Assembly (NCBI GenBank): GCA_003971905.1
Contig: RSEE01000049.1
Span: 248,001 to 312,000 of the forward strand
Reading direction: 5' to 3'
DNA: 64,000 bases
Source: Moniliella sp. 'wahieum'
Lineage: Eukaryota
Shown here: positions 9,346 to 35,541 of the stretch, piece after piece
How positions within the stretch are numbered: the stretch's first letter is position 1
Layout: each line of letters begins with the position of its first letter
Position numbers and translations under genes: made by a program
The notes under the pieces: model-generated
What the model saw: only the letters and a program-made list of their open reading frames with translations
The model's database searches: none
Told to the model about the DNA's origin: nothing

Positions 9346-9953
9346 CGCCTCCTCCTCTCCATCCTCCTCTCCATCTCTCCTCTCATCTCCATCTTCTGTT
9401 TACCCATCTGATGAACTTGGGGGCTGTACCTTTTCATCGTGTCTGCCGACGGCTGCTCGCTGGATATAGGAAACGTGTGCTCGGGTTGGAACGGCGCCAA
9501 TAAGGCAGTCGCACGGAAGGGGATGCTCTGCCCATGCTGCCGTTCGGGTGCTTGAATGCTGTGTCCTGCCTCTGGCCTGGACGCCCTGGCCTGGATGCGC
9601 TGGCTGGATGCCCAATAGCCGGCGGAGATGGTGGGAGGAGGCTTGTTGCTGCGATTGCATTATACCTAGGTGGGGGATGGGCGATTACCTCAGCACAGTG
9701 CGTATCGCTGCGCCCTGGCCTCTTGGCGGTGCTGTCGCATGTCGCATGCCACATGTCAATGTCACCGCCGCGGTCACGCTCCCCGTGCTGTGTGGCGCCG
9801 CGGCAGCGTACACACGCAGGCCAGCCACCGCCGCCGCCATCGCCGTCTCGAGTGCCCTGCCCACGCCCCTGCCCAGCACGCCTGGCGCCCACACGCGACT
9901 CTCCGCGCCCACCCTTGCGCCCCCACGCCCCGCCCGCGCCTGCCTCCTCCTTC

Positions 9954-11225
9954 ATGGCCGCCTCGTCTGCGCCCCCGCCCGACGTCGCTCTCTTCCGCCG
10001 CACCGTCTGGGAGGCACGCATCCCCGTCGCCATCTTCCTTGACGACGCCCACCTCCCGCCCGGCAGCGACCCTGCACTGGACACCTACTACACCACCGTC
10101 CCCCGCATCTCCTACCTCCCACTCCTCCTCCCAGCCGTCCGCCGCTTCCTTCTGCCCAGGTCGTGCCCTCCCCCTCCTCGACTCCATCCACGACCGCCAG
10201 CTCTCTTCGAAGCCAACGGCGAGCCGCTCAAGTGGCACTGGCCCGTCGGCGTCCTCTATGATGTCCACCACCTCGCCCGCGCGCCCGCCTCTGCCTCTGC
10301 CTCCGCCCCCGTCCCCGCTTTGCCCTGGCGCCTGACCCTCAAGATTGCCGAGGCCAAGCCCCATGACAAGGCAGGATACCATGCATCCGCCACCCACCGC
10401 CGAACTGTGCAAAACCACTTCATGTCCATGCTCAAGGAAGCCGACTTTGTTCACTACGGATCCACCAAGCGCGTTGTCAACCTGCGCCGTCAGGAACAGG
10501 ATGCGCTTTGGGAGGCAATTGTTGAGTGTATGTCCACTTTTGACGTCGAGCATATGTTGATGACCTCCCCCCCCCCTCCCCCCTGCGCGCGCATTGCTCT
10601 TTGTTTGTTCTTGCTCCTGGGACTAACCCGTCTACGTGTGGCAGACAACTTTGACAAGTACTGGGCCGTTGCCTCTAAAGTTTATCCGCCCCCAACCTTT
10701 TCCTCTGGCGTGGGCGGATTGCCACGGCGTGCTCCACTTGGTGGTCCTACGGGAGCTGGGGACGACAAGTCCATTCTCTCCTCAGTCCTTACCACTCATA
10801 CGAACGAGAGCCAAGCCTCGATTCCAGGCTCTCTCTATAGTGTGGCTGTGAGTGAGGCGCCGAGTATGGCGCCCTCCACCTCAGGCGTCGCGGGCGCCGG
10901 TGCTGGTGCTGGTGCCGGAGCTGGGGCGGCGGTGCTGTGGCTGGAGTGCGGGCCCTGCCGATGCGCTTTCACTTGCCTGACAATGCGGGCATGGCACAGG
11001 AAGCCGTCTCGCCTGTCGCCGAGGATGGAAAGAGTCCGCCACGCTGCATTCGGTCCTCAATCCCTCTTCCCTCTTCTTTTTCCTTCGGCCAAGGGGCCCC
11101 ATCCGCCAGCTAGTGCCTTTATCCATGGCGTGCAGATACCCATCGAGGCGCAGCTGTATTGGCTTGGCCTCGCCTTTACGGGGCCCGACGGCTGGCTCTC
11201 GGTTGTGATTCGCATAGATGCCTGA
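9954..11225 (+). CDS. ATG5: Autophagy protein Atg5
   Basis: Motifs FRRTVWEARIP, VPRISYLPLL, PLKWHWPVGVLYD, LPWRLTL, FMSMLKEADF..GSTKRVVNL..QDALWE. Intron 10528-10644 (GTATGT...GACTAAC...CAG). The C-terminal VRALPMRFHLPD segment lies in a shifted frame (compensating indels), followed by IHGVQIP...GPDGWLSVVI. Confidence 0.92.
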   Translation: MAASSAPPPDVALFRRTVWEARIPVAIFLDDAHLPPGSDPALDTYYTTVPRISYLPLLLPAVRRFLLPRSCPPPPRLHPRPPALFEANGEPLKWHWPVGVLYDVHHLARAPASASASAPVPALPWRLTLKIAEAKPHDKAGYHASATHRRTVQNHFMSMLKEADFVHYGSTKRVVNLRRQEQDALWEAIVECMSTFDVEHMLMTSPPPPPCARIALCLFLLLGLTRLRVADNFDKYWAVASKVYPPPTFSSGVGGLPRRAPLGGPTGAGDDKSILSSVLTTHTNESQASIPGSLYSVAVSEAPSMAPSTSGVAGAGAGAGAGAGAAVLWLECGPCRCAFTCLTMRAWHRKPSRLSPRMERVRHAAFGPQSLFPLLFPSAKGPHPPASAFIHGVQIPIEAQLYWLGLAFTGPDGWLSVVIRIDA

Positions 11226-11753: not shown

Positions 11754-13825
11754 ATGACCCCATCTACGCACGATCGTGTCCCCCTCGGGTGGTCCGAAGT
11801 CCAGGCGTTGGGAGATATGGCGCGGGCCGGGCTGTGTCGGAGCTGCTAGCCCATTGGCCTTGCTGGACCCAGCGGAGCGGCGATCCACCGCTGTGGGGGG
11901 ACGAGGTGGAACAAATGGTGGTCCTTCTGGATGCTGACAGGCGAAGGGCCCCACTCAGTATGGCCCAGGACCGGGTATTGACTGCCCTCGCCACCCAATC
12001 CAACTCACCCACTGCCGGCATTGACTTTCCCAGCTTCCAGCCCGAGTACGCCGGTACATGATCGAGTCGTGCCCAGGTCAACCTTACGACGCGTCTCCTG
12101 CCGGGCTGTGCCAAGTGGAGGCCAGTATGCAAGGCCGCAGGAAGCTGATCCAATCCTGCCTGGGCCCCAGGGAGAAGACTATGACGCTCGCCACCTACCC
12201 TCTCCTGGGCATGTTGGGTTCTCACCGCGACGGCCAGTGCACCGAACATGTCGCATTCGCTGGGCTGGAAGGCGCGTCTCTTTTTGGTCCATTTTGGAGA
12301 GCTCTCTTCTTCCCGACGAGATTATCAGCCCCTTTCACCGCTACCGCACTTTGACGGCCAATGGACGCAAACTCAAGGGCAGCAAGCCCGCCATCCATAT
12401 CCCGCTTTTCAAGGACAAAAGGACGCGTGCCAGCTGGCGTCCCCATCCGACGACGAAAACGGACCATCCTGCATATGGGAGACAGATTTACATGGACGCA
12501 TTGCCTTTGGCACAGGGTGCTGTGGCCTGCAGGCAACCATCCAAGCTGAATCCCTCTCCCAAGCCCGCCAGATCCACGACCTCCTCGTCCCGCTTTCTCC
12601 CATTTGCTCGCTCTCACAGCCGCGTCCCCCGCATTTAGGGGCGCTTTGGCCGATGTGGATTCCCATTGGATGGTATTGGCTCAGGCATTGGATGACCGCC
12701 CCGAGGAGAACAACGGAACACACTTTTCTTCCAGCTGATGGATGAAGGAGGCCGGGAGCGTCATCTCAACGACACGGAGAAGAGCCGGTGGGGCATTCCG
12801 AGTATGTACCTGGCTCTGCCTCCGCACTTGGCGGCCACTCCCGGGTATGGGGATCCCCCGACGCTTCGCATTCACCAACAATCGTATGAGACGTTGGTGC
12901 AAAATGGGATGGAGCCGGTTTTGGCACGTCACTTTGCCAGCATTTTCCACACGATCCCCTGCTGTTGTACCCCCCGATGATCGAAACACGGAAGAAGGGG
13001 CACAGCAAGATGGCCCGACAGAGTATCTCGATCTCTTTCTAACTTCTATTTGGCCCGCCGTACGACTCAAGCCGCCCGTTTCGCATGATGGGCCCGGATG
13101 GCGAGTGGAGATGCGGTCGATGGAAATCCAGCTGACGGATTTTGAAAACGCAGCGTTTACCACTTTTGCTGTGCTCCTCGTCCAGGCTCTGTTAGAGTTG
13201 GGGCTGTCGTTGCACATGCCCCTTTCGTCTGTTGACTCCAACATGACCTGCGCTCAACAGCGCGGCGCCGGCAGCTCGATGCGCTACTTGTTCTCGACCC
13301 GCTTTGCTCAAGCACTTGGTGCACCTCCTTCGGACGACACATCGGGTGATGGCCTTTCGTCATTTAGCTTGCATGAGTTGATCAATGGTCAGGTATGTGG
13401 TGTGTTTTGTTGCATCCTGTTCCTTCGTTACTAGCCCCATCTTTTGACCACAGACAACTGGGTTTCAAGGACTGGTCCCTATGGTGCGCTCGTACCTCGC
13501 GCACCAACCAATGGAGGCGAGCCACGCGCGGCAACTGAATGAGTACTTGGACTTTATCAGCGACAGAGCCCGAGGGAAGTATGTCACTCTGGCCTCGTAT
13601 GTCCGCAACTACATTCTCCGCCACCCGGCTTACCGGTTGGACAGCCAGATCAGCCCCGAACTCGGATACGACTTGCTGGTGCACTTGGACCAGGTGGAGC
13701 AAGGCGTGGTCGCTGCTCCTACCCTACTGCCGCGCTCCTATGCCCCCTCGTGCTCGCCCGGCACGCTGCGAGCGTGCAACAACGGTACAAGTAAAACAGG
13801 ACTCGGATGCGAAGCTTTGATCTAA
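11754..13825 (+). CDS. Glutamate-cysteine ligase catalytic subunit-like protein (divergent Gsh1/GCLC paralog); multiple frameshifts
   Basis: Ordered GCL motifs across frames: PLGWSEV, LWGDEVEQ, FQPEYAG/MIESCPGQPY, IYMDA/FGTGCCGLQATIQA, ALTAASPAFRG.LADVD.HW, DDRPEE, KSRW, IWPAVRLKPP, GWRVEMRSMEIQLTDFENAAF, HPAYRLDSQIS. Intron 13393-13453; TATA-like TATATAA at ~11693. The start codon is inferred. Confidence 0.85.
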
Positions 13826-14481
13826 GTGTACCCTCTTATTGGACGGTGGTCTGTGTGGCCTTTTAGTGCCTCAGTCCTTACCTCCCTAGTAGTCCTCTTT
13901 GTCTTCTATTTTGTACTACCCTAGATATTCTATCGCCGTTTCCACGACTGTACGTTGTGCAGACGGCCCCTCTTGACTGATGTGACTGTACTATTACTTT
14001 TTGTTACTACCGGCGGTATTCCCCTATTCCTCCTATTACTACTAGTATATTATTTCTCGGCGAGATGGAGTATCGGTTTTTGGAGTCCTGGTAGTGCAAA
14101 GGAGAGGTCGGGGGATCTGGTCTATTGGGGTAGGGGGGCATAATAGCCGGTAGTAGGGAGGGGCTACCTTGTTTTTGTGAGGCCCACAAAGCCGAGGAAA
14201 TGATATCTCCCTTCTGTATATACGGCGGGTGTGGTACAGGTGCCGTCTGAGTCATTCGAGTCACGCTAGTACCGCGAGACAAAGGACTAATACTTGCTAC
14301 AGCAGCACAGAGGACATGGGTCATTCCGGTCATTAGATACGCGATTGCAAGCAATATTCGGGCAAAGCTGCGTGTGTTGCGTGCATGTCCATATCGCCGC
14401 CACGTCCCACCACGCCGTAACCATCGCCTGCCCAACCCTGCCTGCCCATCGCTCTTGGGGGGCATCTCGTCCTCTTACGCG

Positions 14482-15758
14482 ATGGATCATCCTGATTCAT
14501 CATCCCTTCCCCCATCCTCGCTTGTGCCGGACGTTGTGCTGGCCGCCTTTGGTCTCAGCCACCCGCCCGCCAATACCACCCGGACTGTCGTCCCGCTCAA
14601 TGGCGGACAAGGTACGAGTGTGCTGCTCGATGGCACGACCGTACTGAAGCCCCTCGGCCAGCAAGACAGCAAGGCGCTGGATCAGGCCGAGTCGGAGCTG
14701 ATTGCCCAGCTGTGCGCAGCTATGGCCTCGCGCGCCGAGCAGAGCAACACCTATCGAGTTGTCCGGCCCATCGCTCGCGTCCGTCCCGGCAAGGGGGAGA
14801 TGCAGTATGTGGCGCATGGATGGACTGCCACCACGTTTCTCCCCCACCTCGACGGGAGGGATATCTATGAGCTCCGTCCTTGGGTGCCCCAGTGGAAATG
14901 GAAGAGCAAGTACGAGGACGACTCGCAGAGATCGTTATAGCCTCTCGGGCCTTCCATGCTGATGTCCGCCAATGGGGCATCCACCCCCCCCACTCCCTTC
15001 CCCCCCACTGGTGGTGCACGTGCCTTTCCCACACTCGCCGCTTCATTGATGCCCGCGAACATGTCTGGGCTCAGACGATCGGTTCATCTGGGGAGGTACA
15101 ATGCTCACTACAATCTCCTACCCCAGCACGAAACCAGCGACTCAGACGACAGGCATAGCTGCAGCCGAAGCCCCTGGCGTTGGAATTGGCGTTGGCCGTG
15201 GATTATCAACAGACAGCCATAACCCCCCCATTTGGGTTTGGCTGGCGTCGCCGCCGAAGCACTTCGGGTGCGGGTCGATTCCTCGCTTCAACCTGCCTAT
15301 ACACTGCTACACACTTACTCGCGTCTCCAGCGCCCGCTTGACCCTCGTTCGGTTGAGCAACGTTCTCAGCTCATTCATGGCGATTTGGCCGGAAACGTGT
15401 TGTTTTCTTCGGGTCAAGCCATGTCGCCCCAATCACCATGCCGCCTCCGCCACCTACGGTGTTGGACGTCTCGCCTTACTGGCGCCCGCGCGAAGCGGCT
15501 GAGGGCATACTTGCCGCTGACTTTCTCGTGTACTTTGGCGCTGATGCATCCCACCTTTCTTCGGCGTTGAGCGCCTCCTCCTCCGACCACCTGGATCCGT
15601 TGCAAGTCCAAATGATCATCAAGGGTCTCCTGTTTCGTTTGCTCTCCAATTCAGCCCTTCGACCCGATCCAGGACTGCATCAACACTACACCCACGCTAC
15701 CAACGTAGCTGCTTTCCTCCTGGACAAAGCTGAGGCCTCCACTGGTAGCTCGAACTGA
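14482..15758 (+). CDS. Aminoglycoside-phosphotransferase-like kinase (resembles actinobacterial TIGR02569 family); frameshifted
   Basis: N-lobe VPDVVLAAFGL...PLNGGQGTSVLLDGTTVLKP, then YRVVRPI...YVAHGWTA, ASRAFHAD, Brenner-type QLIHGDLAGNVLF and PPTVLDVSPYWRP. No intron signals seen. Confidence 0.75.
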
Positions 15759-16210: not shown

Positions 16211-17486
16211 TTAGAGAGCTGTCCGGGAGAGCTTCTGGAGCTGGTTGAGGAGTACGTCACCATCCTTAATGATCTGGTTGTACTGTGCGTTTTTCGAATC
16301 GGGCCGACGCGTCTCGATGACGCCGTGCACCTTGTCAATTACTGCCGGTAGGCGACCCGACGAAATGAACCTCGACAGTTCCCTGTCGATAAACTCATCC
16401 GTGACCCCAAATGCATCTGCCATGGATCGTAGCGTGACAGACCGGTAGGACTCGAGAAGTTGCGCATAGGCAATGATGCGCATCTCCCGCACGTAGTAGC
16501 GCGCATGGGCATTGAGCAGTCGTGAGGGAAGAAGATAGGTTTGCTCGATCTGGGCCAACGCTTCAAAGAAGGCCTTGTAGTTGCCATTGTACAGTGACTG
16601 AGTGTAGACCCTCAAATGCGGCAGCTCGTCAATCACCTGCAGCACCTCGGGCGCATTGAGAATCTTCTTCTTTAGCTCCGTCCGCGGCAAGGCAAGCATA
16701 TTGGCAATCACTGCCAGTGATACAAACGAATGGTAATCCAGTAGTTCGGTTGCGGTAAACGTAGAGAGCGCCTCGAGAAACAGCTCCCCACCTCGCTTAA
16801 AATCCCGAATAGAGAGGAGGTGGAGACCCTCGTATACCTTAAGCCGGTTGCGGCGGTCCCAGTCACCACCCTCTTCGACCACTTTTTGACCTCGGTAATT
16901 GATGATGTGACAAGGGAGGTGTTGCCAAAGAAGAAACCGATGCGGATGAGGCCGAGTGTCAAGTCGATCTTACTGCCTAGCCCAGCACCCTTTTCGATCG
17001 CCTCCTTAGTAGCAGCGATCGCCTTGTCCTACGGAAAAAGAGGCGAAGTTAGCACAAGGCGGGGAGAAAAAGGAAATGCACGCACTTGGTCCCCAATTTT
17101 GGCATAGTAGCTGGCTTTGTTCTTGAGCACTGCGCTGATTTCCATCTCGCCCTCCTCCTCAGTAGCCTTGGTAAGCTGTTGGTCAAGCTTGGCCAGCTCC
17201 TCCTTGTTGCGCTCCTCAAGCCGGGCCAGAAGATCTTGAGGCGTGGAGGCATGGTGGGTGCTGGTACTCCCAACAGGGGAGGGCAACTTCTTGCTGATGA
17301 GCGGGTCGGCAAGCAGGGCAGCGTAGTAAGGTGCCATCTCGTCGGCCTCAATTCCAGCCAGCAGTTCAGCAGCGGCGGCCGAAGGAGATGGTGTCGCCGC
17401 GCGCACCCCCCGTGGACCACGGTAAAGAGGAGGTGCTGCCAGTGCAGGTTGGGGATAGGTTGGATGCTCTCCTCGTCGGCAGACAT
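16211..17486 (-). CDS. RPN7: 26S proteasome lid subunit Rpn7
   Basis: GGDWDRRNRLKVYEG, STFTATELL, RYYVREMRIIAYAQLLESYRSVTL (PCI domain), IDKVHGVIETRRPDSKNAQY. Intron 17029-17085 (GTGCGT...GCTAAC...TAG). ATG in ccaccaccATG context; at least two indels. Confidence 0.95.
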
Positions 17487-17735
17487 GGTGGTGGCGATGG
17501 GGCGCCGCCCGTCGACTGGCATACCCGCCATGCCATACCTACCGCTGGACCGCAGCTAACACACGCGTCCTGGCCGCTGCCCCAGACCGCGCGGAATAGA
17601 TGGCAGGCGGAACGGCAGGCGCAGGCACAGCGCCAGTGTCGCTCCCCGTGACGCGGCCACTCGTTAAGCGTACAACAGCTCGGCCAGAGCGCTCCTCGTG
17701 CGTCTCTTGCGGCCTAGATCGTGATCCCCACCACC
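17487..17735. promoter_or_regulatory. Putative bidirectional promoter shared by RPN7 and RPN6
   Basis: Only 249 bp separate the two divergent start codons, and both have ccaccaccATG contexts. Confidence 0.6.
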
Positions 17736-19103
17736 ATGGCAACGCCTACACCCACCACCCGCCCTCCGTCGCTGCCGCCGAGACCGCGTTTGATGCTGGC
17801 GACCGTGCGGGCGGAGAGGCCCAGCTCAAGGCTGTGCTTGCCCAGCAGCCTCCCGCGGACAAGGCCGCTTCAGCCAAGGGTGAGGCCATCCTGCGCGAGC
17901 AGGAACTCTCGCTCTTCTTCGTCTCGGCCAGCTGTACCGCGACGAAGCCAACGTGGATGCCCTGGCAAGTGTCGTGCGCGACTCACATGCTGTTCTTGCT
18001 CACTTGGCCAAGGCCAAGACGGCAAAGCTGATCCGCCAGCTGATTGACCTCTTTGGGGACGTACCGGGTGATGCAGCCCGCGCCGCCCAGATTCGCATTA
18101 CCGAGGAGAATATTGAGTGGGCCAAGGAGGAAAAACGCATCTTCCTCAAACAAAGTCTTGAGACGAAGCTAATTGCCCTCTACTACGAGGCGAAAAATTA
18201 CCGCCAAGCCCTGCCCTGATAGAACAACTTCTCAAGGAACTCAAGAAGTTGGACGACAAGATGATCCTCACCGAGGTCCACCTGCTCGAATCCAAGGTAA
18301 ACTTTGCGATTGCCAATTTGCCCAAGGCCAAGACAGCCTTGACTTCTGCCCGTACCTCCGCCAACGCCATGTACACCCCGCCTTTGCTCCAGGCTCAACT
18401 GGACTTGCAGAGTGGTGTGCTACACGCCAAAGACAAGGATTACTCCACCGCACTGTACTCGTACTTTTTCGAAGCGCTGGAGGGCTTCTCTGGTCAGGAG
18501 GATCCACGCGCAGGATTGGCACTCAAGTACATGTTGCTGTGTAAAATCATGCTCAACCTGCCGGAGGATGTGGCGGCAATTATTCAAGGCAAGACGGCGC
18601 TTGTGGCCGAATCCAAAGCGGCCAAGGGTGCTAAGGCATGGGGCGCCAAAGGCGCGGCGGTAGAAAAGGCTACGGAGCGGGACGTGGAGGCCATGTCTGC
18701 CGTTGCCAAGGCGCATGAAGAACGGTCATTGGAGGCATTCGAAAAGGCATTGAAGGACTACCAAACTGAATTGTCCAACGACCCCATTATTCGCAACCAC
18801 TTGGCTGAGCTGTACGACACCTTGCTGGAACAAAACTTGCTGCGCGTGATTGAGCCTTACTCGCGAGTCGAGATTGCGTATGTGGCACAACGGGTGCGCC
18901 AACCCGAGCGGGAAGTGGAGCAAAAACTGTCGCAGATGATCCTGGACAAGACCTTCCATGGAATCTTGGACCAAGGCAATGGGTGTCTGGTTGTCTTCGA
19001 TGAGCCTCCACAGGACAAGATGTACGAGGCTGCGTTGCAGACTATCAAGCACGTTGGTGACGTGGTCGACTCGTTGGCTAAAAAGGCTAACAAGTTGGGG
19101 TGA
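17736..19103 (+). CDS. RPN6: 26S proteasome lid subunit Rpn6
   Basis: [112 protein letters not shown]. Several indels in the 5' half. Confidence 0.95.
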
Positions 19104-23930: not shown

Positions 23931-25854
23931 TCATTGAAGAAGGCATGTGACCACCTCCTCCAACCGCGCCATCCCAATATATTGCGTGCAGGGAGCGATG
24001 TTGGTGTGACCCCGCTCGGCATAAGCGCTAAGCGCTAAGCCAGATGGCGTACACCCCATCCCTCGTAGTGCTCCCTTCTGAGTCTTCCTTCCACTTGGCG
24101 ATATATGACAATGGCATGCGGATGATTTCGATGATTAATACCGTAATGATTAGCCCGGTGTTCGTTTTTGACCGCTGTAGCAGGAACCGCCTGAGAGGCA
24201 GCGACCCTATATATGGCTACCAGCCCCCCCAATAGGAGGCGAGGCCGCAGGCCCTGAGTTCCTACTAGTTATGAGTGTACTCTTTGAGTGGGTGCAGGTT
24301 GCAACAGACAAACGGTCTGGTCCATGTCGTGCTCCTCGACTACATGATGCTTGAGCTTGAGGCCGAGGCTAGCTCTTGACCTTAAGCTCAAGTAGCATGA
24401 GCGCATGAGCGCCCCGAGCGCATGAGCCTGATGGGCCTGATATATCTGAATGGACTTCCCGAGCGCCCAAAGCCATAAGGCTGTCGCCGAAATCCTCAAT
24501 ACACTTGCCTACTGCCCCGTCATACGTCACGCGTCACTAGCCCCGTGTCAATGTCATGCATGAATCAGGCCCGTGTATCACATGCTGTCACACATTACAT
24601 CGTACAAGCCGCGGCTATCACACACGCCGTCCCATGTCCCAGCAGACGGAATGGGCTGTGGCCCAGCGGCGATTCCAGGTACCTGGGCTGCTTCCCCACA
24701 TCCTGCAGTCGATCACCTTCTTGTTCCGGCCTGCCGCCCGCGTTCCTGGCCAGCAGAGGCTCCTGGGTCCTGCCTGCCTTGCCACTCATTACACTCGGAC
24801 TGTGGCCGGCTGAGGCCTTGCCGGTGCTTGTGACCCCGCTTGGTGATATTGATATCCGAAGGATGGTGGCTTCAGCATGCAAAAAGAGGGGCTAGTACGA
24901 TGGCCACAAGTCTTGCATAGGCGCACCGCAACAATGGCCGCTCTTGCCGAGAGGGTGCCAACGATTGAAGAGCCTCAGCCAGCGCTGAGCATGCTGAGCG
25001 CAGCGCTAACACGTATGTCTCTCCTGCGAATCTCAGATCTCACACACTTCCTAACTAAACTGACAGGCTGAGGTGCGCTGCGCCGCGCGGCTCAAAATCG
25101 AGAGCCGCGAAGTGTGGCCAGCAGTGTATACGCGAGGGATCGCACTGACTGTCACATCGCAGATCGTACTACAAGCAGCGAACGATTTCTTCCAGTTATA
25201 CAGATGGAGGCGACTGTGGTAGTGACACGTAGTAATGCCTAATGAAATGGCCCTTTCTCTTTCTCCATGGTGCATGGATCCCCTTCCTCCACTGTGCCAT
25301 GGATTCTTCCATCAATATATCAGCAAGGGATTACTATTGGCTGGCTGTTCCCTCAGAACCCAATGCTTCTTACCAACAAACCCTGTTGTCGCACTAGACG
25401 CTCTATTTCGTTGAGCCGGCCGGCACATTATATAGATGCACAGATCTCGGGCATGAGAGCGGTCTTGCTTTTGGCACAACTGTGCGAGCCCGAACGGCCG
25501 AGCTTCTCCGGCAGCCGATCCATCAGGGATTCTGGGCTGCGAAATAGGAGAAGCAGGATGGCGCATGGAATTATGTAGGTACACAGACAGTAGCTGCATA
25601 GTGGATCCACAACACACCGTGCGGCGTTTGTCAACAAAGGTACACATGTGTAACTGAGCAGCTCGCGCTCACTAACGCTCTGGTATCATAGATCACTAGT
25701 GCCGATCCCTGATGCCGATACCGCCGCAATTGGGTCACATGCCAGCCGAAGGCACCTACTGCCCTTCTGCCATCGTGTGCCGTGAAGAAAGATTTGGGAT
25801 TTCATGCCTTCATGACTGTGGCTTTCTTAGTTCTGTCCCAACAAGTATACCCTC

Positions 25855-25862
25855 TATATAAA
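25855..25862 (+). promoter_or_regulatory. TATA box of the lipase gene
   Basis: TATATAAA ~130 nt upstream of ATG 25987, followed by a CT-rich leader. Confidence 0.55.
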
Positions 25863-25986
25863 TATCAATGAAGCAGGCATGCGGTCAGCCAGCAACCACC
25901 CTTCCTTTTCCCTCCCCTCTCTCTTGCTACTGTCCCACCATCCATCCACACTCTTTTTTCTACACGCTCTCTCTCTCTCTCTCAGC

Positions 25987-27531
25987 ATGAAGTTTACCTT
26001 CTCCTTGTCCCTGGTAGGGGCAGCAGCGATCTTGGCGACCTTGACGGGCAACGGCGTTGAAGCTGCCTCGAACCGCCATGGGCTGTCTCGTCAACACCGT
26101 CAGCTCTTCGCTCGGGACTTCCCCCCTCCCCTCCAAGACCCGTTCTACCGTGCACCCCACAACCTGACCAAGTACAAGCCTGGTGAGGTGATCGCGATGC
26201 GCCAAATCACGCCTGGCATGAAAGGTCTTCACAATGTGGGAGAAAGTTACCAGATCCACTTCCGTACAACCAATGCTGAGGGCCATGCTTCTTCGTCTGT
26301 CACCACTGTCATCCAACCGGCCCACGGTGGTAAGCAGAAGATGCTTTCCTACCACTTGTGGGAAGATGCGACCCAGCGCAACTGCGCACCTTCGTACACC
26401 GTTTTGGAGGGCGCCAATGCTCCCAACGTGATGGTTGTTGGTACGTGTGACTTGCTTACTACTGGTGATGAACCGAGAACGCTCAATGGACTACAACTGA
26501 CTTTTGTGAATCAATAAACAGGTGAGGATGTGCCCATCTGGTTTAACTTTTTGCTTCTGAACGGCGTCAGCGTGGTGGTTCCGGATTACGAGGGGCCTAA
26601 GTCAGCACTCTTCGCTGGTTTCACTGCGGGCTACATCATTCTCGACTCGGCGCGCGCTGTCCGGAACGCTCTCCAGTGGAACGATGACGCTGAGGTTGCC
26701 ATGACTGGATACTCTGAGGGTGCGCATGTAACTGCTTGGGCTGCCAACCTGTCGCCGAGTTATGCACCGGACCTCAACATTGTTGGCGTGACTCACGGTG
26801 GCACCCCCATCGACATGGAGCTCACCCTCAAGCACTTTGACGGTACCTCTTTCTCCGGATTCACCATTGGTGGTATCCACGGTATGAACGTGGCGTACAA
26901 GTCCTTCAAGGAGGCAATGGAACAGTACGGTGGTGACGAGATCCGTTCCGACTTGAAGATTATCACCAAGCCGCCTACTTGCCACTCCATCCTCCGTGGT
27001 CCTGACTTTGCCGGCAAGTCCTACTTGAACATGATTCAACCCCCTGGCAACATCAGTGTCTTCGACTGGGAGCCGTTCCGCTACGTCCTGGACCGCGAGA
27101 CGCTCTGGAACAATAAGTCCTCCGTCGGAGTCGGTTACCCCAAGTTCCCTCGCATGATCTACCAGGGATCGCACGACGATGTAATCAGCTTCGCTGCTGT
27201 CGAAGCCTACGTCAAGCAACAGTGTGCCAACGGTGCGGACATTCAGTTTAATGTGTACACAGCCTACGCCCACACCGCTCCCGAAGTTGTCATTGGCGGC
27301 GACCTCAACGCAATGCGCTTTATCCTGGAGGTCTTTAACCTGAACGGTCATACCCTTCTCAAGCTTCCGTGCGGCGAGCCCACGCCTTCTCTCCTCAACA
27401 TCGGGACCTGGACGGTGGATACCATTTTGGGCCCCAACGTTACTGACTCGTTCCAGCAACTGTTTGACCAGGTTGGCACCTTTGCTAACATTGGTTTCGG
27501 TCCCCATGTCAACAAGACGAACCGTGTTTAA
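25987..27531 (+). CDS. Secreted lipase, CalA/Candida LIP family
   Basis: Signal peptide MKFTFSLSLVGAAAILATL; PPLQDPFY, WEDA...CAPSY, VVVPDYEGPKS, nucleophile GYSEG, HGGTP, PKFPR.IYQG.HDDVI (Asp), AHT (His). Intron 26441-26521 restores the frame; no indels seen. Confidence 0.93.
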
Positions 27532-29872: not shown

Positions 29873-30000
29873 AAGCTTCAAGCTTCAAGCTTCAAGCTCT
29901 TAGGCTTCAAAAGCTTGAAGACCACACTCATACTCAGTACTCAACCGTTGAGTGTTCAACCTGAGTCTGAGTACACTGAGTACTGAGTCTGAGCACTGAA
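29873..30000. repeat. Palindromic heptamer array (AAGCTT-C)x3-4 followed by AGTACT/CTGAG degenerate units
   Basis: AAGCTT at 29873, 29880 and 29887; downstream tactcagtactc and ctgagtactgag. Confidence 0.8.
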
Positions 30001-30808
30001 TTTACACACACTTATACATATGCACGCCACAGCTCGTCCAAAAGACACAGTAAGTCTGCATAATCTGATGGACATCGGGGCCAGCCGGAAGCCATAGTAC
30101 TGGTAGAGAGTAGGCGAGGATGACGCACACCGTCATCCCCTCCGGCTTTGTTGATTAATGATTCCCCCAGGTGTTTCGTTGGTGGCAGCGCTGGACTTGG
30201 AGACAGGGTTTGAAATGCTGACAGGGGTGTAGACTGGGGCTTTTGGCCGAGAACGCCATGAAAAGACACCAGGCCAATCCAACGGCCAGCTCTGAGATGC
30301 GACACCCCCCCTCTCCTCTTGTTTTCTTCCCATGTGGAGGCACCACTCCTCAACGGCTGGGAACGGTGAATGTGGTGGGGGATTGTTTCTGGTAGGAGGC
30401 ACTGGTACTGGCGGCTAGGGATTCTGGTTGCTAGGGGCGTGGGATCTGGGAAGCGCGCGTGCGCGGTGGCACGCACCCGCGTGACACTGCCCCGGCCGAG
30501 GTGTTGTTCTCGTGTGTCTCGGCGCGCCAAAAATTCAGGGGGAGCGGAATGCAGCGCCGTGCCCTCCCGCCCTTCCGCGATCGCCTCGATCACTCGGCCC
30601 GACACCCGCCTGCCCAGACGTTCGCCAGGCTCCGCACGTCGCTCGCTGGTCTCTCGACGCCATAGGCACTATGCATGCATGCCCGCCGATGCTTCCCTCA
30701 CGCTCGACGCCGTAGGTCCTCCTCCTCCTCCTCACCCCCACCACCCCCACCACCCCACCACCTGCTCCCCCCCCCCGCTTTTACCCCATACCCCATACCC
30801 CGCACCCA

Positions 30809-33800
30809 ATGGGCATCATCTCCCGCATTTGGCACCGCGCCACCGCCAGCCAATCGTCCGGCCCCGCCCCGTCCGAGGCGGCCGCGCCGACCGACGCCCT
30901 ACCTGCCTCCGTCACCACGCCCGCACCGTCCGAGTCCGCATACGAAGAAGCCCGCACTGGCTCGTCCGATGTGCCCTCCGACCCCCCGCCGCTGCTTCGA
31001 CCCATACCAACTCCGTCGCGTCGAGCGTGCGCGGCCAGGACGGGCCGAACCAGTCAGGTTCTGAAGGAGCCGCGGAACCGACGGGAAAGAAACGTGGCCA
31101 TGCAGCCACGAGCAGCATCAGTCGTCTGATGCACCGTGCTTTGGCTCCGTCCAAGGCCAAGGAAACCCTCACTTCGGCGGCGGCTGTCGTGCCGGAGGAC
31201 ACAGAACAGGCTCACTCGTCGGAAGACAGTCCGATCAAACGTCATGAGAGTGCACACGACGACCTTGCTCGCCTCTTGGCCCAGTACGTACCTTCTTCCC
31301 TTCCCCCTGTCCCGGGTGACGATGACAAACGAATTAACGTTGAACACCCCCTGGTCCAGAGATCATGCGCACCCGTCCACCTCGACCGAGGCCGAGGCAG
31401 CAGAACCTGATCCGGCCAACTCGGAAACCAACAACGAACAAAACGAAGAGGAAGCCAAGCCGCTCGAGTCTGTGCCCTCCCAGCCAACCCAAGGAGTAGA
31501 GCCGACGAAGGTGCCTACCCCCGTTGAACCCGAGATTAAGATGGCGACTCCCGCCGAGACTACCACCGAGGAGCCTACCCCGGCCGAGCCCACCACCGAG
31601 GAGCCTACCCCGGCTGAGCCTGCAGCCGAAAAGCCCAGACCCGCTGAGACCACGGTGGTGGAGCCCACTCCCGCCGAGCCTGCCGCTGAGGAGTCCGCGG
31701 CCGTCGAGCCCGCTGAGGAGCCGGTTACTGCCTTGGAGCCCACTGCCGCCGAGCCAGCTGCCAAAGAGGAGCCTACCCCCGCTGAACCTGCCGCCAAGGA
31801 GCCCACCCGCTGCACCTGTTGCCGAGGAGCTTACCACCGCTGAGGCCACGGTTGAGGAGCCCGCTCCTGCTGCACCTGTCGCCGAGGAGCCCACTCTCGC
31901 CGAGCCTGAGGTGAAGGTGGCGGCCCCCGCCGAGCCTGCCGCTGAGGAGCCCGCTTCCGTCGTGCCCGCTGTGGAAGAGCCGGTTGCTACCGTGGAGCCC
32001 ACTCTCGCCGAGCCTGCCGCCGAGGAGCCCACTCCCGCTGAGCCTGAGGTGAAGGAGGCCGCTCTCGCCGAGCCTGCCGCTGAGGAGCCCGCTCCCGTCG
32101 CGCCCGCTGTGGAAGAGCCGGTTGCTACCGTGGCGCCCACTCTCGCCGAGCCTGCCGCTGAGGAGCCCGCTCCCGTCGCGCCCGCTGTGGAAGAGCCGGT
32201 TGCTGCCGTGGAGCCCACTCTCGCCGAGCCTGCCGCCGAGGAGCCCACTCCTGCTGAGCCTGAGGTGAAGGAGGCCGCCCGCCGCGAGCCTGCCGCTGAG
32301 GAGCCCGCTTCCGTCGCGCCCGCTGTGGAGGAGCCGGTTGCTGCCGTGGAGCCCACTCCCGCCGAGCCTGCCGCTGAGGAGCCCACTCCCGCTGAGCCTG
32401 AGGTGAAGGAGGCCGCTCCCGCCGAGCCTGCCGCTGAGGAGCCCGCTTCCGTCGCGCCCGCTGTGGAAGAGCCGGTTGCTACCGTGGAACCCACTCCCGC
32501 TGAGCCTGAGGTGAAGGAGGCCGCTCCCGCCGAGCCTGCCGCTGAGGAGCCCGCTTCCGCCGCGCCCGCTGTGGAAGAGCGGTTGCTACCGTGGAACCCA
32601 CTCCCGTCGAGCCGAGGTGAAGGAGGCCGCTCCCGCCGCGCCTGCCGCCGAGGAGCCCACTCCCGCTGAGCCTGAGGTGAAGGAGGCCGCTCCCGCCGAG
32701 CCTGCCGCTGAGGAGCCCGCTTCCGTCGCGCCCGCTGTGGAAGAGCCGGTTGCTACCGTGGAACCCACTCCCGTCGAGCCTGAGGTGAAGGAGGCCGCTC
32801 CCGCCGAGCCTGCCGCTGAGGAGCCCACTCCCGCTGAGCCTGAGGTGAAGGAGGCCGCTCCCGCCGAGCCTGCCGCCGAGGAGCCCGCTTCCGTCGCGCC
32901 CGCTGTGGAAGAGCCGGTTGCTACCGTGGAACCCACTCCCGTCGAGCCTGAGGTGAAGGAGGCCGCTCCCGCCGCGCCTGCCGGAGGAGCCCACTCCCGC
33001 TGAGCCTGATGTGAAGGAGGCCGCTCTCGCCGAGCCTGCCGCTGAGGAGCCCGCTTCCGTCGCGCCCGCTGTGGAAGAGCCGGTTGCTACCGTGGAGCCC
33101 ACTCTCGCCGAGCCTGCCGCCGAGGAGCCCACTCCCGCTGAGCCTGAGGGTGAAGGAGGCCGCTCCCGCCGAGCCTGCCGCTGAGGAGCCCGCTTCCGTC
33201 GCGCCCGCTGTGGAAGAGCCGGTTGCTGCCGTGGAGCCCACTCTCGCCGAGCCTGCCGCCGAGGAGCCCACTCCCGCTGAGCCTGAGGTGAAGGAGGCCG
33301 CTCCCGCCGAGCCTGCCGCTGAGGAGCCCGCTTCCGCCGCGCCCGCTGTGGAAGAGCCGGTTGCTACCGTGGAACCCACTCCCGTCGAGCCTGAGGTGAA
33401 GGAGGCCGCTCCCGCCGCGCCTGCCGCCGAGGAGCCCACTCCCGCTGAGCCTGAGGTGAAGGAGGCCGCTCCCGCCGAGCCTGCCGCTGAGGAGCCCGCT
33501 TCCGTCGCGCCCGCTGTGGAAGAGCCGGTTGCTACCGTGGAACCCACTCCCGTCGAGCCTGAGGTGAAGGAGGCCGCTCCCGCCGAGCCTGCCGCTGAGG
33601 AGCCCACTCCCGCTGAGCCTGAGGTGAAGGAGGCCGCTCCCGCCGAGCCTGCCGCTGAGGAGCCCGCTTCCGCCGCGCCCGCTGTGGAAGAGCCGGTTGC
33701 TGCCGTGGAGCCCACTCTCGCCGAGCCTGCCGCCGAGGAGCCCACTTCTGTCGCGCCCGCTGTGGAGGAGCCGGTTGCTGCCGTGGAGCCCACTCTCGCC

Positions 33801-34866
33801 GAGTCTGCCGCCGAGGAGCCCACTCCCGCTGAGCCTGAGGTGAAGGAGGCCGCTCCCGCCGAGCCTGCCGCTGAGGAGCCCACTCCCGCTGAGCCTGAGG
33901 TGAAGGAGGCCGCTCCCGCCGAGCCTGCCGCTGAGGAGCCCGCTTCCGTCGCGCCCGCTGTGGAAGAGCCGGTTGCTACCGTGGAGCCCACTCTCGCCGA
34001 GCCTGCCGCCGAGGAGCCCACTCCCGCTGAGCCTGAGGTGAAGGAGGCCGCTCCCGCCGAGCCTGCCGCTGAGGAGCCCGCTTCCGTCGCGCCCGCTGTG
34101 GAAGAGCCGGTGCTACCGTGGAGCCCACTCTCGCAGAGCCTGCCGCCGAGGAGCCCACTTCTGTCGCGCCCGCTGTGGAGGAGCCGGTTGCTGCCGTGGA
34201 GCCCACTCTCGCCGAGTCTGCCGCCGAGGAGCCCACTCCCGCTGAGCCTGAGGTGAAGGAGGCCGCTCCCGCCGAGCCTGCCGCTGAGGAGCCCACTCCC
34301 GCTGAGCCTGAGGTGAAGGAGGCCGCTCCCGCCGAGCCTGCCGCTGAGGAGCCCGCTTCCGTCGCGCCCGCTGTGGAAGAGCCGGTTGCTACCGTGGAAC
34401 CCACTCCCGTCGAGCCTGAGGTGAAGGAGGCCGCTCCCGCGGAGCCTGCCGCCGAGGAGCCCACTCCCGCTGAGCCTGAGGTGAAGGAGGCCGCTCCGCC
34501 GAGCCTGCCGCCGAGGAGCCCACTTCTGTCGCGCCCGCTGTGGAAGAGCCGGTTGCTGCCGTGGAGCCCACTCTCGCCGAGCCTGCCGCTGAGGAGCCCA
34601 CTCCCGCTGAGCCTGAGGTGAAGGAGGCCGCTCCCGCCGAGCCTGCCGCTGAGGAGCCCACTCCCGCTGAGCCCACGGTTGAGGAGCCCACTCCTGCTGC
34701 GCCTGTCGCCGAGAAGCCCACTCCCGCTGCGGCCACGGTTCTGGAGTCCGCTCGCGTCGATGCCGCCCCTGAACTGTCCATCTCGGCTGAGCAGGCTCTC
34801 GAGGGCCCCGCCGCCCGTGGTGCGCTTGACGCCTCGCAGCCTGAGCCCACTGCCCCCCATCATTAG
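30809..34866 (+). CDS. Large acidic E/P/A-rich repeat protein (~1300 aa, PEVK-like); frameshifted
   Basis: ATG 30809 (MGIISRIWHR); intron 31284-31359 (GTACGT...ATTAAC...CAG; Q|DHAHPS). Five overlapping ORFs read the same repeat EPTPAEPEVKEAAPAEPAAEEPASVAPAVEEPVATV in successive frames; stop after PTAPHH. Confidence 0.8.
31550..34730 (+). repeat. Coding tandem array of ~30-nt modules forming a ~138-nt higher-order unit
   Basis: Near-identical modules gagcccactcccgctgagcctgaggtgaag / gaggccgctcccgccgagcctgccgctgag / gagcccgcttccgtcgcgcccgctgtggaa / gagccggttgctaccgtg repeated for ~3 kb. Confidence 0.95.
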
Positions 34867-35085
34867 ATGAGTGTGAGTGTGGTATATGTGTGGCCAAGGA
34901 GCCGCTTGACAAGCTGCAGTTGCTCTGAGATCTGATTTACTTCTCCCACTCCCCATGCCTGAACGTTGAACGCTAAGCCTAGGCTTCCGCTTTTGGCTAC
35001 GACCATCCCCCGTACGCCCTGATCTCTGTCCTAGAGACGGTGGATCTACTTCCCCCTTCCCCTTCTCCTTCTGATACCTATCACG

Positions 35086-35157
35086 ATGCCTGATGCCCGT
35101 TGCCTGATGCCCGATGCCTGATGCCCGATGCCTGATGCCCGATGCCTGATGCCCGAT
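35086..35157. repeat. (GATGCCT/GATGCCC) heptamer microsatellite
   Basis: Alternating tgcctga/tgcccga units, about 10 copies. Confidence 0.9.
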
Positions 35158-35450
35158 ATTTTCGCTTGACGTTTGATGCCCAAACGCTTCTTTCTTGGTT
35201 TCTGCCTTCCCTTTCTTCCCCTTCCTGCCTTTCGACGTTTAATGTCCGCCTGCCTGTGGGCTACGATTTGGTTTGTTTTTGCCGCTTGGCCCTTGCCCTT
35301 TGTCCGTGCCCTCTCTTCTCTGCCTTTGGGCGACAAAGGTAATACCTACACCACTTGAACTAACTGGTCGGATAGCAGAGAGGATGGGACCTCAGGAAAG
35401 AACGAGAAACTTCGGTTGGGAGGATCAATGAGAGTGCAAAGGTGGTACAG

Positions 35451-35541
35451 GTGATGGGGGATGGGATGGGATGGGATGGGATGGGATGGGATGGGATGGG
35501 ATGGGATGGGATGGGGTGGGATGGGATGGGATGGGATGGGG
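35451..35541. repeat. (GGATG)n pentanucleotide microsatellite
   Basis: About 16 copies of atggg. Confidence 0.95.

What the first reader, a model, noticed from the sequence alone, without database searches (positions are those of the whole stretch)
11754..13825. GCL paralog with a rewired glutamate-binding pocket
Seen: metal/ATP motifs are retained (WGDEVE, PEY..MIE, LQ, W..VRLKPP, WRVEMR), but three normally conserved positions differ: GTGCCGLQ (vs GMGC[CS]CLQ), DVDSHW (vs D.D.RW) and KSRW (vs KSRY). The usual ENIQSTNWQT reads DLFLTSIWPA. Knowledge (recalled from the yeast Gsh1 structure, to be verified): this Cys, Arg and Tyr contact the glutamate alpha-carboxylate. Inference: co-ordinated loss of those ligands with an intact catalytic core suggests an ATP-dependent carboxylate-amine ligase acting on a non-glutamate acyl donor, rather than the housekeeping Gsh1.
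Basis: partly seen in the sequence, partly recalled or inferred. Interest (0 to 1): 0.72.

Follow-up and report, generated by a model that had tools for sequence, protein, structure and literature searches.

The report
Fast-evolving glutamate-cysteine ligase gene, assembly-broken
This is a real but unusually diverged copy of the enzyme that makes the first step of glutathione, whose apparent breaks are most likely sequencing errors and whose altered substrate pocket is only partly shared with its one intact relative, so a new function is possible but unproven.

Summary
They can only be read after eight reading-frame corrections and removal of one 61-nt intron.

**Frame breaks.** All eight belong to the single-base-deletion class. 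The same class breaks four conserved neighbours: RPN6, RPN7, the HSF DNA-binding domain and PRP28. The corrected GCL frame has no stop in 672 codons. It keeps 89 of 101 highly conserved columns; its intact relative P0046 keeps 91. I therefore read the breaks as assembly errors, not decay. Their density in GCL is still about 3.5 times that in the neighbours.

**Divergence.** The gene is a hyper-diverged glutamate-cysteine ligase (GCL). It is 36-42% identical to any canonical GCL, while canonical fungal GCLs share 47-62%. It nests with Ustilaginomycotina GCLs on a stem about seven times longer than theirs.

**Active site.**
- All Mg, ATP and gamma-carboxylate ligands are kept.
- M262T, C266G, Y362W and the changed NWQT loop are shared with P0046, so they are real lineage features.
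- R313H is unique to this window (Arg in 147 of 147 other sequences).

**Open points.** Whether this is a paralog or the only GCL cannot be tested here. There is no evidence for a non-glutamate substrate.

The parts
11754..13825 (+). Whole GCL-family gene: ATG at 11754, TAA at 13823-13825. The conceptual product is 672 codons once 8 frame breaks are bridged with X and the intron is removed.
11754..13392 (+). Exon 1. Read in nine frame segments (frame = codon start mod 3): 11754-11810 (frame 0), 11813-12052 (frame 2), 12055-12273 (frame 1), 12276-12506 (frame 0), 12509-12601 (frame 2), 12604-12729 (frame 1), 12732-12947 (frame 0), 12950-12979 (frame 2), 12982-13392 (frame 1).
   Evidence: Frameshift-aware alignment to P0046. 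Reproduced with canonical GCLs P0193 and P0194, tblastn and collinear Pfam coordinates.
11811..11812 (+). Frame break 1: 2 nt where a codon is expected (single-base-deletion class). Context ttgGGaga. P0193 and P0194 place it at 11832.
12053..12054 (+). Frame break 2, between PEYA(G) and YMIE. No room for an intron.
12274..12275 (+). Frame break 3, in a poorly conserved loop. Its position is uncertain within about 12222-12300; a T5 run lies nearby.
12507..12508 (+). Frame break 4, just before GTGCCGLQ. Context ccTTTgg.
12602..12603 (+). Frame break 5, before LLALTAASP. Context ccaTTTgc.
12730..12731 (+). Frame break 6, in the loop after DDRPEE. The references place it between 12706 and 12736.
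12948..12949 (+). Frame break 7, before HDPLLL.
   Evidence: With P0193 and P0194, breaks 7 and 8 merge into one 'skip 1' event.
12980..12981 (+). Frame break 8, the last one. There are none in the remaining roughly 850 nt of the gene.
13393..13453 (+). Intron of 61 nt, GTATGT...ACAG, phase 0. P0046 and P0044 both read through an intron at the same place (after ..NGK).
   Evidence: found automatically with P0193.
13454..13825 (+). Exon 2, frame 2, including the stop. It encodes the C-terminal GCS region (Pfam profile 293-371).
11894..11911 (+). WGDEVE, equivalent to yeast W47-E52. The ADP and Mg ligands D49, E50 and E52 are kept.
   Evidence: PMC5613772 Table 3.
12038..12069 (+). QPEYA / YMIES, equivalent to yeast E96 and E103 (Mg and cysteine-amine ligands), both kept. 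G98A is shared with P0046.
12509..12532 (+). GTGCCGLQ, equivalent to yeast G261-Q268. M262T and C266G are both shared with P0046. C264 and Q268 are kept.
12652..12669 (+). DVDSHW, equivalent to yeast D309-W314. Arg313 is His here (codon CAT). It is Arg in P0046 and in 147 of 147 other sequences.
12780..12791 (+). KSRW, equivalent to yeast K359-Y362. Tyr362 is Trp, shared with P0046 (QSRW).
13030..13077 (+). DLFLTSIWPAVRLKPP. Trp445 and Lys451 are kept. N444I, Q446P and T447A are changed; P0046 has T, P and V at these positions.
13096..13116 (+). GWRVEMR. R468, E470 and R472 are kept. F471 is Met (Ala in P0046).

Best explanation
The locus is a biologically intact two-exon gene for a glutamate-cysteine-ligase-family enzyme. 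It derives from the Ustilaginomycotina Gsh1 lineage and has evolved several times faster than its relatives. Its eight reading-frame breaks are single-base deletion errors of this assembly, not mutations.

**Mechanism (inferred from the retained residues).** As in Gsh1, a cluster of glutamates (E50, E52, E96, E103, E470) holds Mg2+. With K451 and R472, this positions ATP and a substrate carboxylate. The carboxylate is phosphorylated to an acyl phosphate and then attacked by the amine of a second amino acid, which is held by E96 and W445.

**What has changed** is the far end of the acyl-substrate pocket (M262T, C266G, Y362W and, in this genome only, R313H) and the loop around W445. I think it most likely still ligates glutamate, or a very close analogue, to cysteine with loosened alpha-carboxylate recognition.

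**Shown:** family membership, the retained core, the lineage-conserved substitutions, the phylogenetic position, and the error signature of the assembly.

**Inferred:** that the gene is intact in the organism, and what it ligates.
For: **Same kind of frame break in conserved neighbours**
- RPN6: PSMD11 residues 7-105 end at DNA 18213 in one frame. Residues 108-379 start at 18219 in another. That leaves 5 nt for 2 residues.
- RPN7: Pfam profile 53-104 and 100-174 fall in two frames on overlapping DNA, at an A5 run.
- HSF DNA-binding domain: the break is at a C4 run.
- PRP28: the break at 59511 shows with 2 of the 4 references tried; a second break lies near 57883.

**All breaks go the same way.** All 13 homology-supported breaks in the window (8 in GCL, 5 in neighbours) belong to the single-base-deletion class.

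**The GCL gene looks otherwise healthy**
- No stop in 672 corrected codons.
- ATG, GT..AG intron and stop are all intact.
- Of 101 columns that are at least 90% conserved, the window alone deviates at 7 and P0046 alone at 5.

**The breaks follow a patch, not the gene.** All eight lie in 11811-12980. None lies in the last roughly 850 nt. The 3' end of ATG5, immediately upstream, seems to hop frames in the same direction.

**An intact relative exists.** P0046 is a single 855-codon ORF, 51% identical, carrying the same pocket changes.

**The catalytic residues are retained**.

**Phylogeny**
- Careful tree: the clade of window + P0046 + five Ustilaginomycotina GCLs has support 99/92 (ultrafast bootstrap / SH-aLRT). 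Its stem is 1.49 against 0.2 for the sister groups.
- AU test: holding that clade together is 17.4 lnL better than the free quick tree.
Against: - **Break density.** GCL has 8 breaks in 1.95 kb. The homology-checked parts of PRP28, RPN6, RPN7 and HSF have 5 in about 4.35 kb. By my own calculation, Poisson P is about 0.002 for a uniform rate. Some breaks could therefore be real.
- **Arg313 is lost.** It is otherwise invariant (147 of 147), and a second conserved Arg (the RDP motif at 12950) is also His. Both are G-to-A changes at CpG.
- **Longer branch.** The window's end branch is longer than P0046's (1.05 against 0.72).
- **ATG5 frame hops are unconfirmed.** They rest on my reading of the frames and a recalled Atg5 motif. 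PDB, Pfam and Atlas searches with those pieces gave nothing.
- **Not every break fits a homopolymer.** Some GCL breaks sit at short or no obvious homopolymer runs (12053, 12948, 12980).
- **No direct data.** There are no reads, no transcript data and no second assembly.
Confidence: 0.55

Rival explanations
1. Neo-functionalised paralog. A duplicate of Gsh1 kept the ATP and Mg machinery but remodelled the alpha-carboxylate clamp, so it now activates a carboxylate other than L-glutamate. A canonical Gsh1 would sit elsewhere in the genome.
For: - Y362W, M262T, C266G and the changed NWQT loop are conserved between two lineages that are only 51% identical.
- Tyr362 hydrogen-bonds the glutamate alpha-carboxylate in ScGcs (PMC5613772 Table 3).
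- In this genome the invariant Arg313 is also gone.
- The stem is about seven times longer than those of the sister groups, and both end branches stay fast, as expected for a copy freed from the housekeeping role.
- Identity to every canonical GCL (36-42%) is lower than between fungal and diatom GCLs (43-52%).
Against: - No second GCL could be looked for, so paralogy is unshown.
- P0046 keeps Arg313.
- Each single substitution occurs in sequences annotated as ordinary GCL: Trp362 in Gigaspora P0200, and Ala at position 266 in L. donovani.
- The gamma-carboxylate and amino-group ligands (R472, E52) are unchanged.
- The flanking genes are housekeeping (ATG5, RPN7, RPN6). This is not a metabolite cluster.
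- The co-variation test had no power.
Confidence: 0.2
2. Genuine pseudogene. A redundant or dispensable GCL copy is decaying. At least some of the eight frameshifts and the two Arg-to-His changes are real mutations under relaxed selection.
For: - Break density is about 3.5 times that of the checked neighbours.
- The universally conserved Arg313 is lost, and so is the RDP arginine.
- Six of the 7 window-only losses at conserved columns lie in the same 11.8-13.0 kb stretch.
- The window has the longest end branch of the pair.
Against: - All 8 breaks belong to one class, identical to the breaks in essential genes.
- There is no stop codon in 672 codons.
- Conserved-column losses are 7 against 5 for the intact relative.
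- Start codon, splice sites and stop are intact.
- No break lies in the last 41% of the gene.
- The breaks seem to continue upstream into ATG5, that is, across a gene boundary.
Confidence: 0.2

Closest known systems
Saccharomyces cerevisiae Gsh1, the glutamate-cysteine ligase catalytic subunit (PDB 3IG5, 3IG8, 3LVV, 3LVW; Pfam PF03074)
   Same: - Same family and same length class (672 against 678 codons).
- Alignable from residue 9 to about 643 through P0046.
- D49, E50, E52, E96, E103, C264, Q268, W445, K451, R468, E470 and R472 are all kept.
   Different: - About 37% identity to the K. lactis ortholog.
- M262T, C266G, R313H, Y362W, N444I, Q446P, T447A, F471M and Y53Q.
- The reading frame is broken 8 times in this assembly.
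Canonical Ustilaginomycotina GCLs: Malassezia sp. CBS 17886 (P0193), Jaminaea pallidilutea (P0194), Parajaminaea phylloscopi (P0195)
   Same: These are the nearest named relatives by tree. The 7-row clade has support 99/92. They also have the highest pairwise identity, 41%.
   Different: - They are 62% identical to each other and carry the canonical pocket residues.
- The window + P0046 stem is 1.49 against 0.2 for theirs.
P0046, an unnamed 855-aa protein from a public assembled contig, and the 117-aa fragment P0044
   Same: - They are the only close relatives found: P0046 is 51% identical over 639 positions, and P0044 is 64% identical over the fragment.
- Same pocket changes: T262, G266, W362 and the xWPx loop.
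- Same intron position.
   Different: - P0046 keeps Arg313 and is one uninterrupted ORF.
- It has long insertions, and its ORF reads through the intron.
Trypanosomatid gamma-glutamylcysteine synthetase (L. donovani, T. brucei)
   Same: It is a bona fide GCL whose GMGCxCLQ motif naturally differs at the two cysteines. L. donovani has Asn324 and Ala326 where S. cerevisiae has Cys264 and Cys266 (PMC5613772, passage seen). So the Cys-to-Gly change here need not abolish GCL activity.
   Different: Trypanosomatid enzymes keep the Tyr (Tyr397). They also keep the Arg that I take to match yeast Arg313 (Arg367). That correspondence is inferred from spacing and was not aligned here.

Membership tests
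Eukaryotic glutamate-cysteine ligase catalytic subunit (Pfam PF03074 GCS; Gsh1/GCLC) | Sequence match to the family profile above the curated cut-off, collinear along the gene | tested here: met
   5 of 7 frame pieces hit PF03074 (110.1, 75.7, 39.7 and 37.3 bits above the cut-off of 25, and 24.2 bits just below it). Profile coordinates run in order from 6 to 371; 3ig5 at E=4.7e-11.
Eukaryotic glutamate-cysteine ligase catalytic subunit (Pfam PF03074 GCS; Gsh1/GCLC) | Mg2+-binding glutamate cluster (yeast E50, E52, E96, E103, E470) | tested here: met
   All five are Glu in the window and in P0046. Ligand roles are from PMC5613772 Table 3.
Eukaryotic glutamate-cysteine ligase catalytic subunit (Pfam PF03074 GCS; Gsh1/GCLC) | Nucleotide, phosphate and gamma-carboxylate ligands (D49, K451, R472) | tested here: met
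   All kept. K451 is 221 of 221 and R472 is 222 of 222 in the sample.
Eukaryotic glutamate-cysteine ligase catalytic subunit (Pfam PF03074 GCS; Gsh1/GCLC) | Tyr362, which hydrogen-bonds the glutamate alpha-carboxylate | tested here: not met
   Trp in the window and in P0046. In the sample it is Tyr in 136 of 161, Trp in 8 and Phe in 6.
Eukaryotic glutamate-cysteine ligase catalytic subunit (Pfam PF03074 GCS; Gsh1/GCLC) | Invariant Arg of the D-x-D-x-R-W motif (yeast Arg313) | tested here: not met
   His (CAT) at 12664-12666. It is Arg in 147 of 147 other sequences, including P0046.
Eukaryotic glutamate-cysteine ligase catalytic subunit (Pfam PF03074 GCS; Gsh1/GCLC) | Cysteine-site Trp445 within the NWQT loop | tested here: inconclusive
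   Trp445 is kept (214 of 217 in the sample), but its neighbours are changed: N444I, Q446P, T447A.
Eukaryotic glutamate-cysteine ligase catalytic subunit (Pfam PF03074 GCS; Gsh1/GCLC) | One continuous coding frame per exon | tested here: inconclusive
   There are 8 frame breaks in exon 1. The same class of break occurs in RPN6, RPN7, HSF and PRP28, so the assembly cannot be trusted on this point.
Eukaryotic glutamate-cysteine ligase catalytic subunit (Pfam PF03074 GCS; Gsh1/GCLC) | Makes gamma-glutamylcysteine / rescues a gsh1 mutant | not testable with these tools
   This needs expression of the polished gene.
Eukaryotic glutamate-cysteine ligase catalytic subunit (Pfam PF03074 GCS; Gsh1/GCLC) | Is the organism's single Gsh1 ortholog (versus an extra copy) | not testable with these tools
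   Only this window is available, and tblastn finds no second GCL in it. The genome collection on offer holds bacteria and archaea only. The tree position fits either reading.
Pseudogene | Frame-disrupting changes specific to this gene | tested here: not met
   The same single-base-deletion class breaks four conserved neighbours. Only the density is higher in GCL.
Pseudogene | Premature stop codons in the restored frame | tested here: not met
   0 stops in 672 codons. There were 0 in-path stops with P0193 and P0194.
Pseudogene | Excess loss of conserved residues relative to an intact relative | tested here: inconclusive
   Window-only 7, P0046-only 5, both 5, out of 101 conserved columns. The window's losses include the invariant Arg313.
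Pseudogene | dN/dS near 1; no transcript | not testable with these tools
   No nucleotide sequence of relatives and no expression data are available.
GCS2 / YbdK-type carboxylate-amine ligase (Pfam PF04107) | Match to PF04107 | tested here: not met
   Only PF03074 was reported for the 7 pieces at E up to 0.01.

The most novel reading that the evidence does not exclude
In this organism a Gsh1-derived ligase has lost both side chains that clamp the glutamate alpha-carboxylate (Tyr362 to Trp, Arg313 to His) while keeping the whole ATP, Mg and acyl-phosphate machinery. It would then work as a carboxylate-amine ligase on an acyl donor that lacks a free alpha-carboxylate, or otherwise differs from L-glutamate. 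That would be a new enzymatic offshoot of the eukaryotic GCL family. A canonical Gsh1 elsewhere would do the housekeeping.
Probability: 0.15. Interest if true: 0.7.

Novelty: new variant of a known kind. Interest (0 to 1): 0.35.

Why it matters
- **If the gene is intact.** It marks a small yeast lineage in which the rate-limiting glutathione enzyme, normally very conserved, has evolved several times faster and re-lined its amino-acid pocket. That could mean either altered glutathione biosynthesis or regulation, or a new ligase activity. The polished gene would give enzymologists a natural test of how much the Tyr362/Arg313 clamp matters.
- **Practical lesson.** This assembly carries systematic single-base deletions in coding sequence, at least 13 in the genes I could check. 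'Pseudogenes' and unusual residues called from it need confirmation from reads before any biological reading.

Tried and rejected
- **Uniform error rate.** I first took the frame breaks to be confined to GCL, because the long neighbour ORFs gave full Pfam domains. Scanning all frame pieces of the neighbours overturned this. PDB alignments, frame reading and the PRP28 control confirmed it.
- **Codon-bias frame plot**. The bias is too weak (GC3 0.64) to trace frames, so I did not use it.
- **ATG5 alternative-frame pieces.** There was no hit in PDB, Pfam at E up to 10 or the Atlas. The triple frame hop in ATG5 therefore stays a reading, not a result.
- **First quick tree of 59 rows**. It put the window + P0046 with unnamed divergent GCLs and Bogoriella (SH-aLRT 92). 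The AU test showed a better tree with them among Ustilaginomycotina GCLs. The careful 28-row tree, from which I left out the 17 divergent rows and 14 other unnamed rows, agreed. I treat the first placement as long-branch attraction, though the AU test does not formally reject it.
- **Co-evolution of pocket positions** (independent_pairs). There were 5 usable pairs and p=1, so no conclusion.
- **Pocket variants elsewhere.** Several unnamed GCL homologs share parts of the pattern (for example P0171, P0113 and P0094 with G266, W362 and P446). Their organisms are unknown, and the Atlas only said 'GCL, Ascomycota/Chordata clusters'.
- **Cluster look-up** for the source of P0046, P0044 and P0029 was not available.
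- **Primary structure papers** (Biterova and Barycki 2009, 2010) are not held. I used PMC5613772 instead.
- **Literature searches** for fungal GCL paralogs or duplications listed 1 and 2 papers. None was relevant by title or abstract start, and I did not read them.
- **Downstream ORFs** at 14251-15758 gave no Pfam hit at E up to 1.
- **Collections that stayed unchecked.** The genome collection holds only bacteria and archaea, so I made no search for related loci, synteny or a second GCL.
Full report
**What is at the coordinates.** The window is from a GC-rich fungus (about 58% GC). Between 11754 and 13825 on the + strand, pieces of a glutamate-cysteine ligase (GCL) lie in all three frames.
- Five of the seven frame pieces I submitted match Pfam PF03074. 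The profile coordinates run in order: 6-45, 41-80, 87-147, 163-295, 293-371.
- Yeast Gsh1 (3ig5) matches the longest piece at E=4.7e-11.
ATG 11754 and TAA 13823-13825 bound the gene.

**Gene model.** I wrote a frameshift- and intron-aware protein-to-DNA alignment.
- Against the closest full-length relative, P0046, it gives eight frame breaks. They are near 11811, 12053, 12274, 12507, 12602, 12730, 12948 and 12980. Each is '2 nt where a codon should be', that is, the single-base-deletion class.
- A ninth 'break' in that run lies inside the intron, which P0046's ORF reads through.
- Against the canonical GCL P0193, the same breaks appear. The last two merge into one event, and the intron 13393-13453 (61 nt, GTATGT..ACAG, phase 0) is found automatically.
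- With P0194 the breaks are again reproduced, but the alignment crossed the intron by two further shifts instead of modelling it.
- At most breaks the flanking homology is contiguous, so no intron fits.
- Bridging the breaks with X gives 672 codons with no stop.

**Are the breaks real?** I first thought they were confined to GCL, because the neighbours gave full Pfam domains in long ORFs. That was wrong.

| Gene | Evidence for a single-base deletion |
|---|---|
| RPN6 | PSMD11 residues 7-105 end at DNA 18213 in one frame and residues 108-379 start at 18219 in another: 5 nt for 2 residues, at a CCC run |
| RPN7 | Pfam profile 53-104 and 100-174 in two frames on overlapping DNA, at an A5 run (16883-16887) |
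| HSF DNA-binding domain | Its first residues are in one frame and profile 14-58 in another, at a C4 run (55333-55336) |
| PRP28 | Changes frame at 59511 with 2 of 4 references (P0227, P0229; P0232 and P0233 gave no C-terminal match); changes again near 57883 in its N-terminal region |

- All 13 homology-supported breaks in the window go the same way. Natural decay would give a mixture of shift directions. RPN6 and RPN7 are essential proteasome subunits in yeast (established knowledge).
- In GCL the breaks stop at 12980, leaving the last roughly 850 nt clean.
- The 3' end of ATG5 just upstream appears to hop frames 0, 2, 1, 0 in the same direction. That is only my reading, helped by a recalled Atg5 motif. 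PDB, Pfam and Atlas gave no support for those short pieces.
- Of 101 columns conserved in at least 90% of homologs, the window alone deviates at 7, P0046 alone at 5, and both at 5.

I conclude that the breaks are most likely consensus errors of the assembly. The argument that remains for a pseudogene is density. GCL has 8 breaks in 1.95 kb, against 5 in about 4.35 kb of checked neighbour sequence. My own Poisson estimate for a uniform rate is about 0.002.

**Relatives.**
- A word-indexed search with the core piece found only 39-48% identical GCLs.
- The exhaustive HMMER search found two closer sequences. P0044 is a 117-aa fragment, 64% identical. P0046 is 855 aa and 53% identical on the core.
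- P0046 is one uninterrupted ORF from an unnamed contig. It is 51% identical to the window's product over 639 positions.
- P0046's best named hits are the GCLs of Malassezia sp. CBS 17886, Jaminaea and Parajaminaea, at 33-37%.
- The organism itself has no close named relative. Its PRP28 is 73-83% identical to unnamed proteins and 56-59% to Tilletiaria and Ustilaginales.

**How diverged.**
- Canonical fungal GCLs are 47-62% identical to one another, and 43-52% to a diatom GCL.
- The window and P0046 are 36-42% identical to all of them.
- A quick 59-row tree placed the pair with unnamed divergent GCLs. The tree with the pair held among Ustilaginomycotina GCLs is 17.4 lnL better (p-AU 0.82).
- A careful tree of 28 rows puts window + P0046 in a 7-row clade with Jaminaea/Parajaminaea and the Malassezia group. 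Support is 99/92 (ultrafast bootstrap / SH-aLRT), as an unresolved three-way split. For that tree I left out the 17 divergent rows and 14 other unnamed rows.
- In that tree the stem is 1.49 against 0.2 for the sister groups, and the end branches are 1.05 and 0.72.
- So the gene descends from the Ustilaginomycotina Gsh1 lineage and evolved much faster. Whether by duplication or as the ortholog of a third lineage cannot be told.

**The pocket.** I mapped residues to yeast numbering through P0046's alignment to 3ig5 and a 227-row alignment.
- **Kept:** D49, E50, E52, E96, E103, C264, Q268, W445, K451, R468, E470, R472.
- **Changed in both the window and P0046:** Y53, G98A, M262T, C266G, Y362W, N444, Q446P, T447, F471.
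- **Changed only in the window:** R313H, where Arg is found in 147 of 147 others. Also the Arg of the RDP motif, and two Arg in the RRG region.

From passages of PMC5613772:
- ScGcs Tyr362 OH lies 3.0 A from the glutamate OXT.
- Arg472 binds OE2, and Glu52 lies near the amino group.
- Glu96 and Trp445 hold the cysteine moiety.
- Sc Cys264 and Cys266 are active-site residues that are Asn and Ala in the active L. donovani enzyme.
- The modelled L. donovani glutamate pocket includes Met322, Gln328, Arg367 and Tyr397.

That Arg367 matches yeast Arg313 is my inference from spacing. The role of the T. brucei arginine is recalled, and I saw it only as a statement and a reference in that paper. The primary yeast structure papers were not held.

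**Reading.**
- The chemistry end of the site is untouched: metals, ATP, the gamma-carboxylate and the attacking amine.
- The end that recognises the alpha-carboxylate, and the loop beside Trp445, are re-lined. Most of that re-lining is conserved in a second lineage, so it is selected rather than noise.
- Each single change also occurs in sequences annotated as ordinary GCLs (PMC5613772).
- Tyr362 changes at least 11 times on my (biased) 59-row tree. A controlled co-variation test had no power.
- The flanking genes are housekeeping (ATG5, RPN7, RPN6). This is not a metabolite cluster.

I therefore rank the readings as follows:

| Reading | Confidence |
|---|---|
| Intact, still a gamma-glutamyl-type ligase with loosened recognition | 0.55 |
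| Substrate-switched paralog | 0.2 |
| True pseudogene | 0.2 |

**What stayed unchecked.**
- The rest of the genome, and hence a second GCL.
- The reads behind the assembly.
- The organisms and contigs of P0046 and P0044 (one search was not available, and I did not try to trace them).
- Synteny in other fungi.
- Literature searches for fungal GCL paralogs returned 1 and 2 listings. None looked relevant, and I did not read them.

Noticed in passing
window 18214-18218 (+), RPN6 gene about 17884-19100: The proteasome lid subunit RPN6 has a single-base deletion at a CCC run. PSMD11 residues 105 and 108 are separated by only 5 nt, and the frame changes there. This is almost certainly an assembly error.
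   Followed up: yes
window 16883-16887 (-), RPN7 gene about 16214-17538: RPN7 changes frame at an A5 run with no room for an intron. A separate, normal 57-nt intron (17029-17085, GTGCGT..CTAAC..TAG) happens to be in frame and carries a stop.
   Followed up: yes
window 55333-55336 (-), HSF gene about 54762-55400: The HSF-type DNA-binding domain starts in one frame (PAFVTKLWYLM..) and continues in another after a C4 run. It is the same deletion class.
   Followed up: partly
window 59511 and about 57883 (+), PRP28 gene 57705-59753: The DEAD-box helicase PRP28 has a frame change about 30 codons before its true C-terminus (seen with 2 of 4 references). It probably has another in its low-complexity N-terminal region. 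The long ORF hides both.
   Followed up: yes
window about 10930-11070 (+), 3' end of ATG5 (ORF 9504-11225): ATG5's UblB domain lacks profile positions 1-33 in the main ORF. The missing part seems to be encoded in the two other frames in turn (0, 2, 1, 0). That would be three more single-base deletions directly upstream of GCL. No search confirmed it.
   Followed up: partly
window 26441-26521 (+), secretory lipase (Pfam LIP) gene 25831-27531: The stop that splits the lipase ORF lies inside an 81-nt in-frame intron (GTACGT..CTGAC..ACAG). It is an ordinary intron, not a nonsense mutation.
   Followed up: partly
window 14251-15758 (+): A chain of overlapping ORFs runs downstream of GCL (frames 1, 0, 2, then 0) with no Pfam hit at E up to 1. 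It may be one unknown gene broken by the same kind of deletion.
   Followed up: partly
window 30000-37000: This is a very GC-rich stretch, up to 0.73 at 32-34 kb. It has many long overlapping ORFs on both strands, and none of the eight I submitted hit Pfam.
   Followed up: no
proteins P0171, P0113, P0094, P0173, P0090, P0051 (not in the window): Several unnamed GCL homologs from public data carry parts of the same pocket pattern: Gly/Ser/Ala at 266, Trp/Phe at 362, Pro at 446. All keep Arg313. They may form one or more uncharacterised GCL-like subfamilies, and their organisms are unknown.
   Followed up: partly
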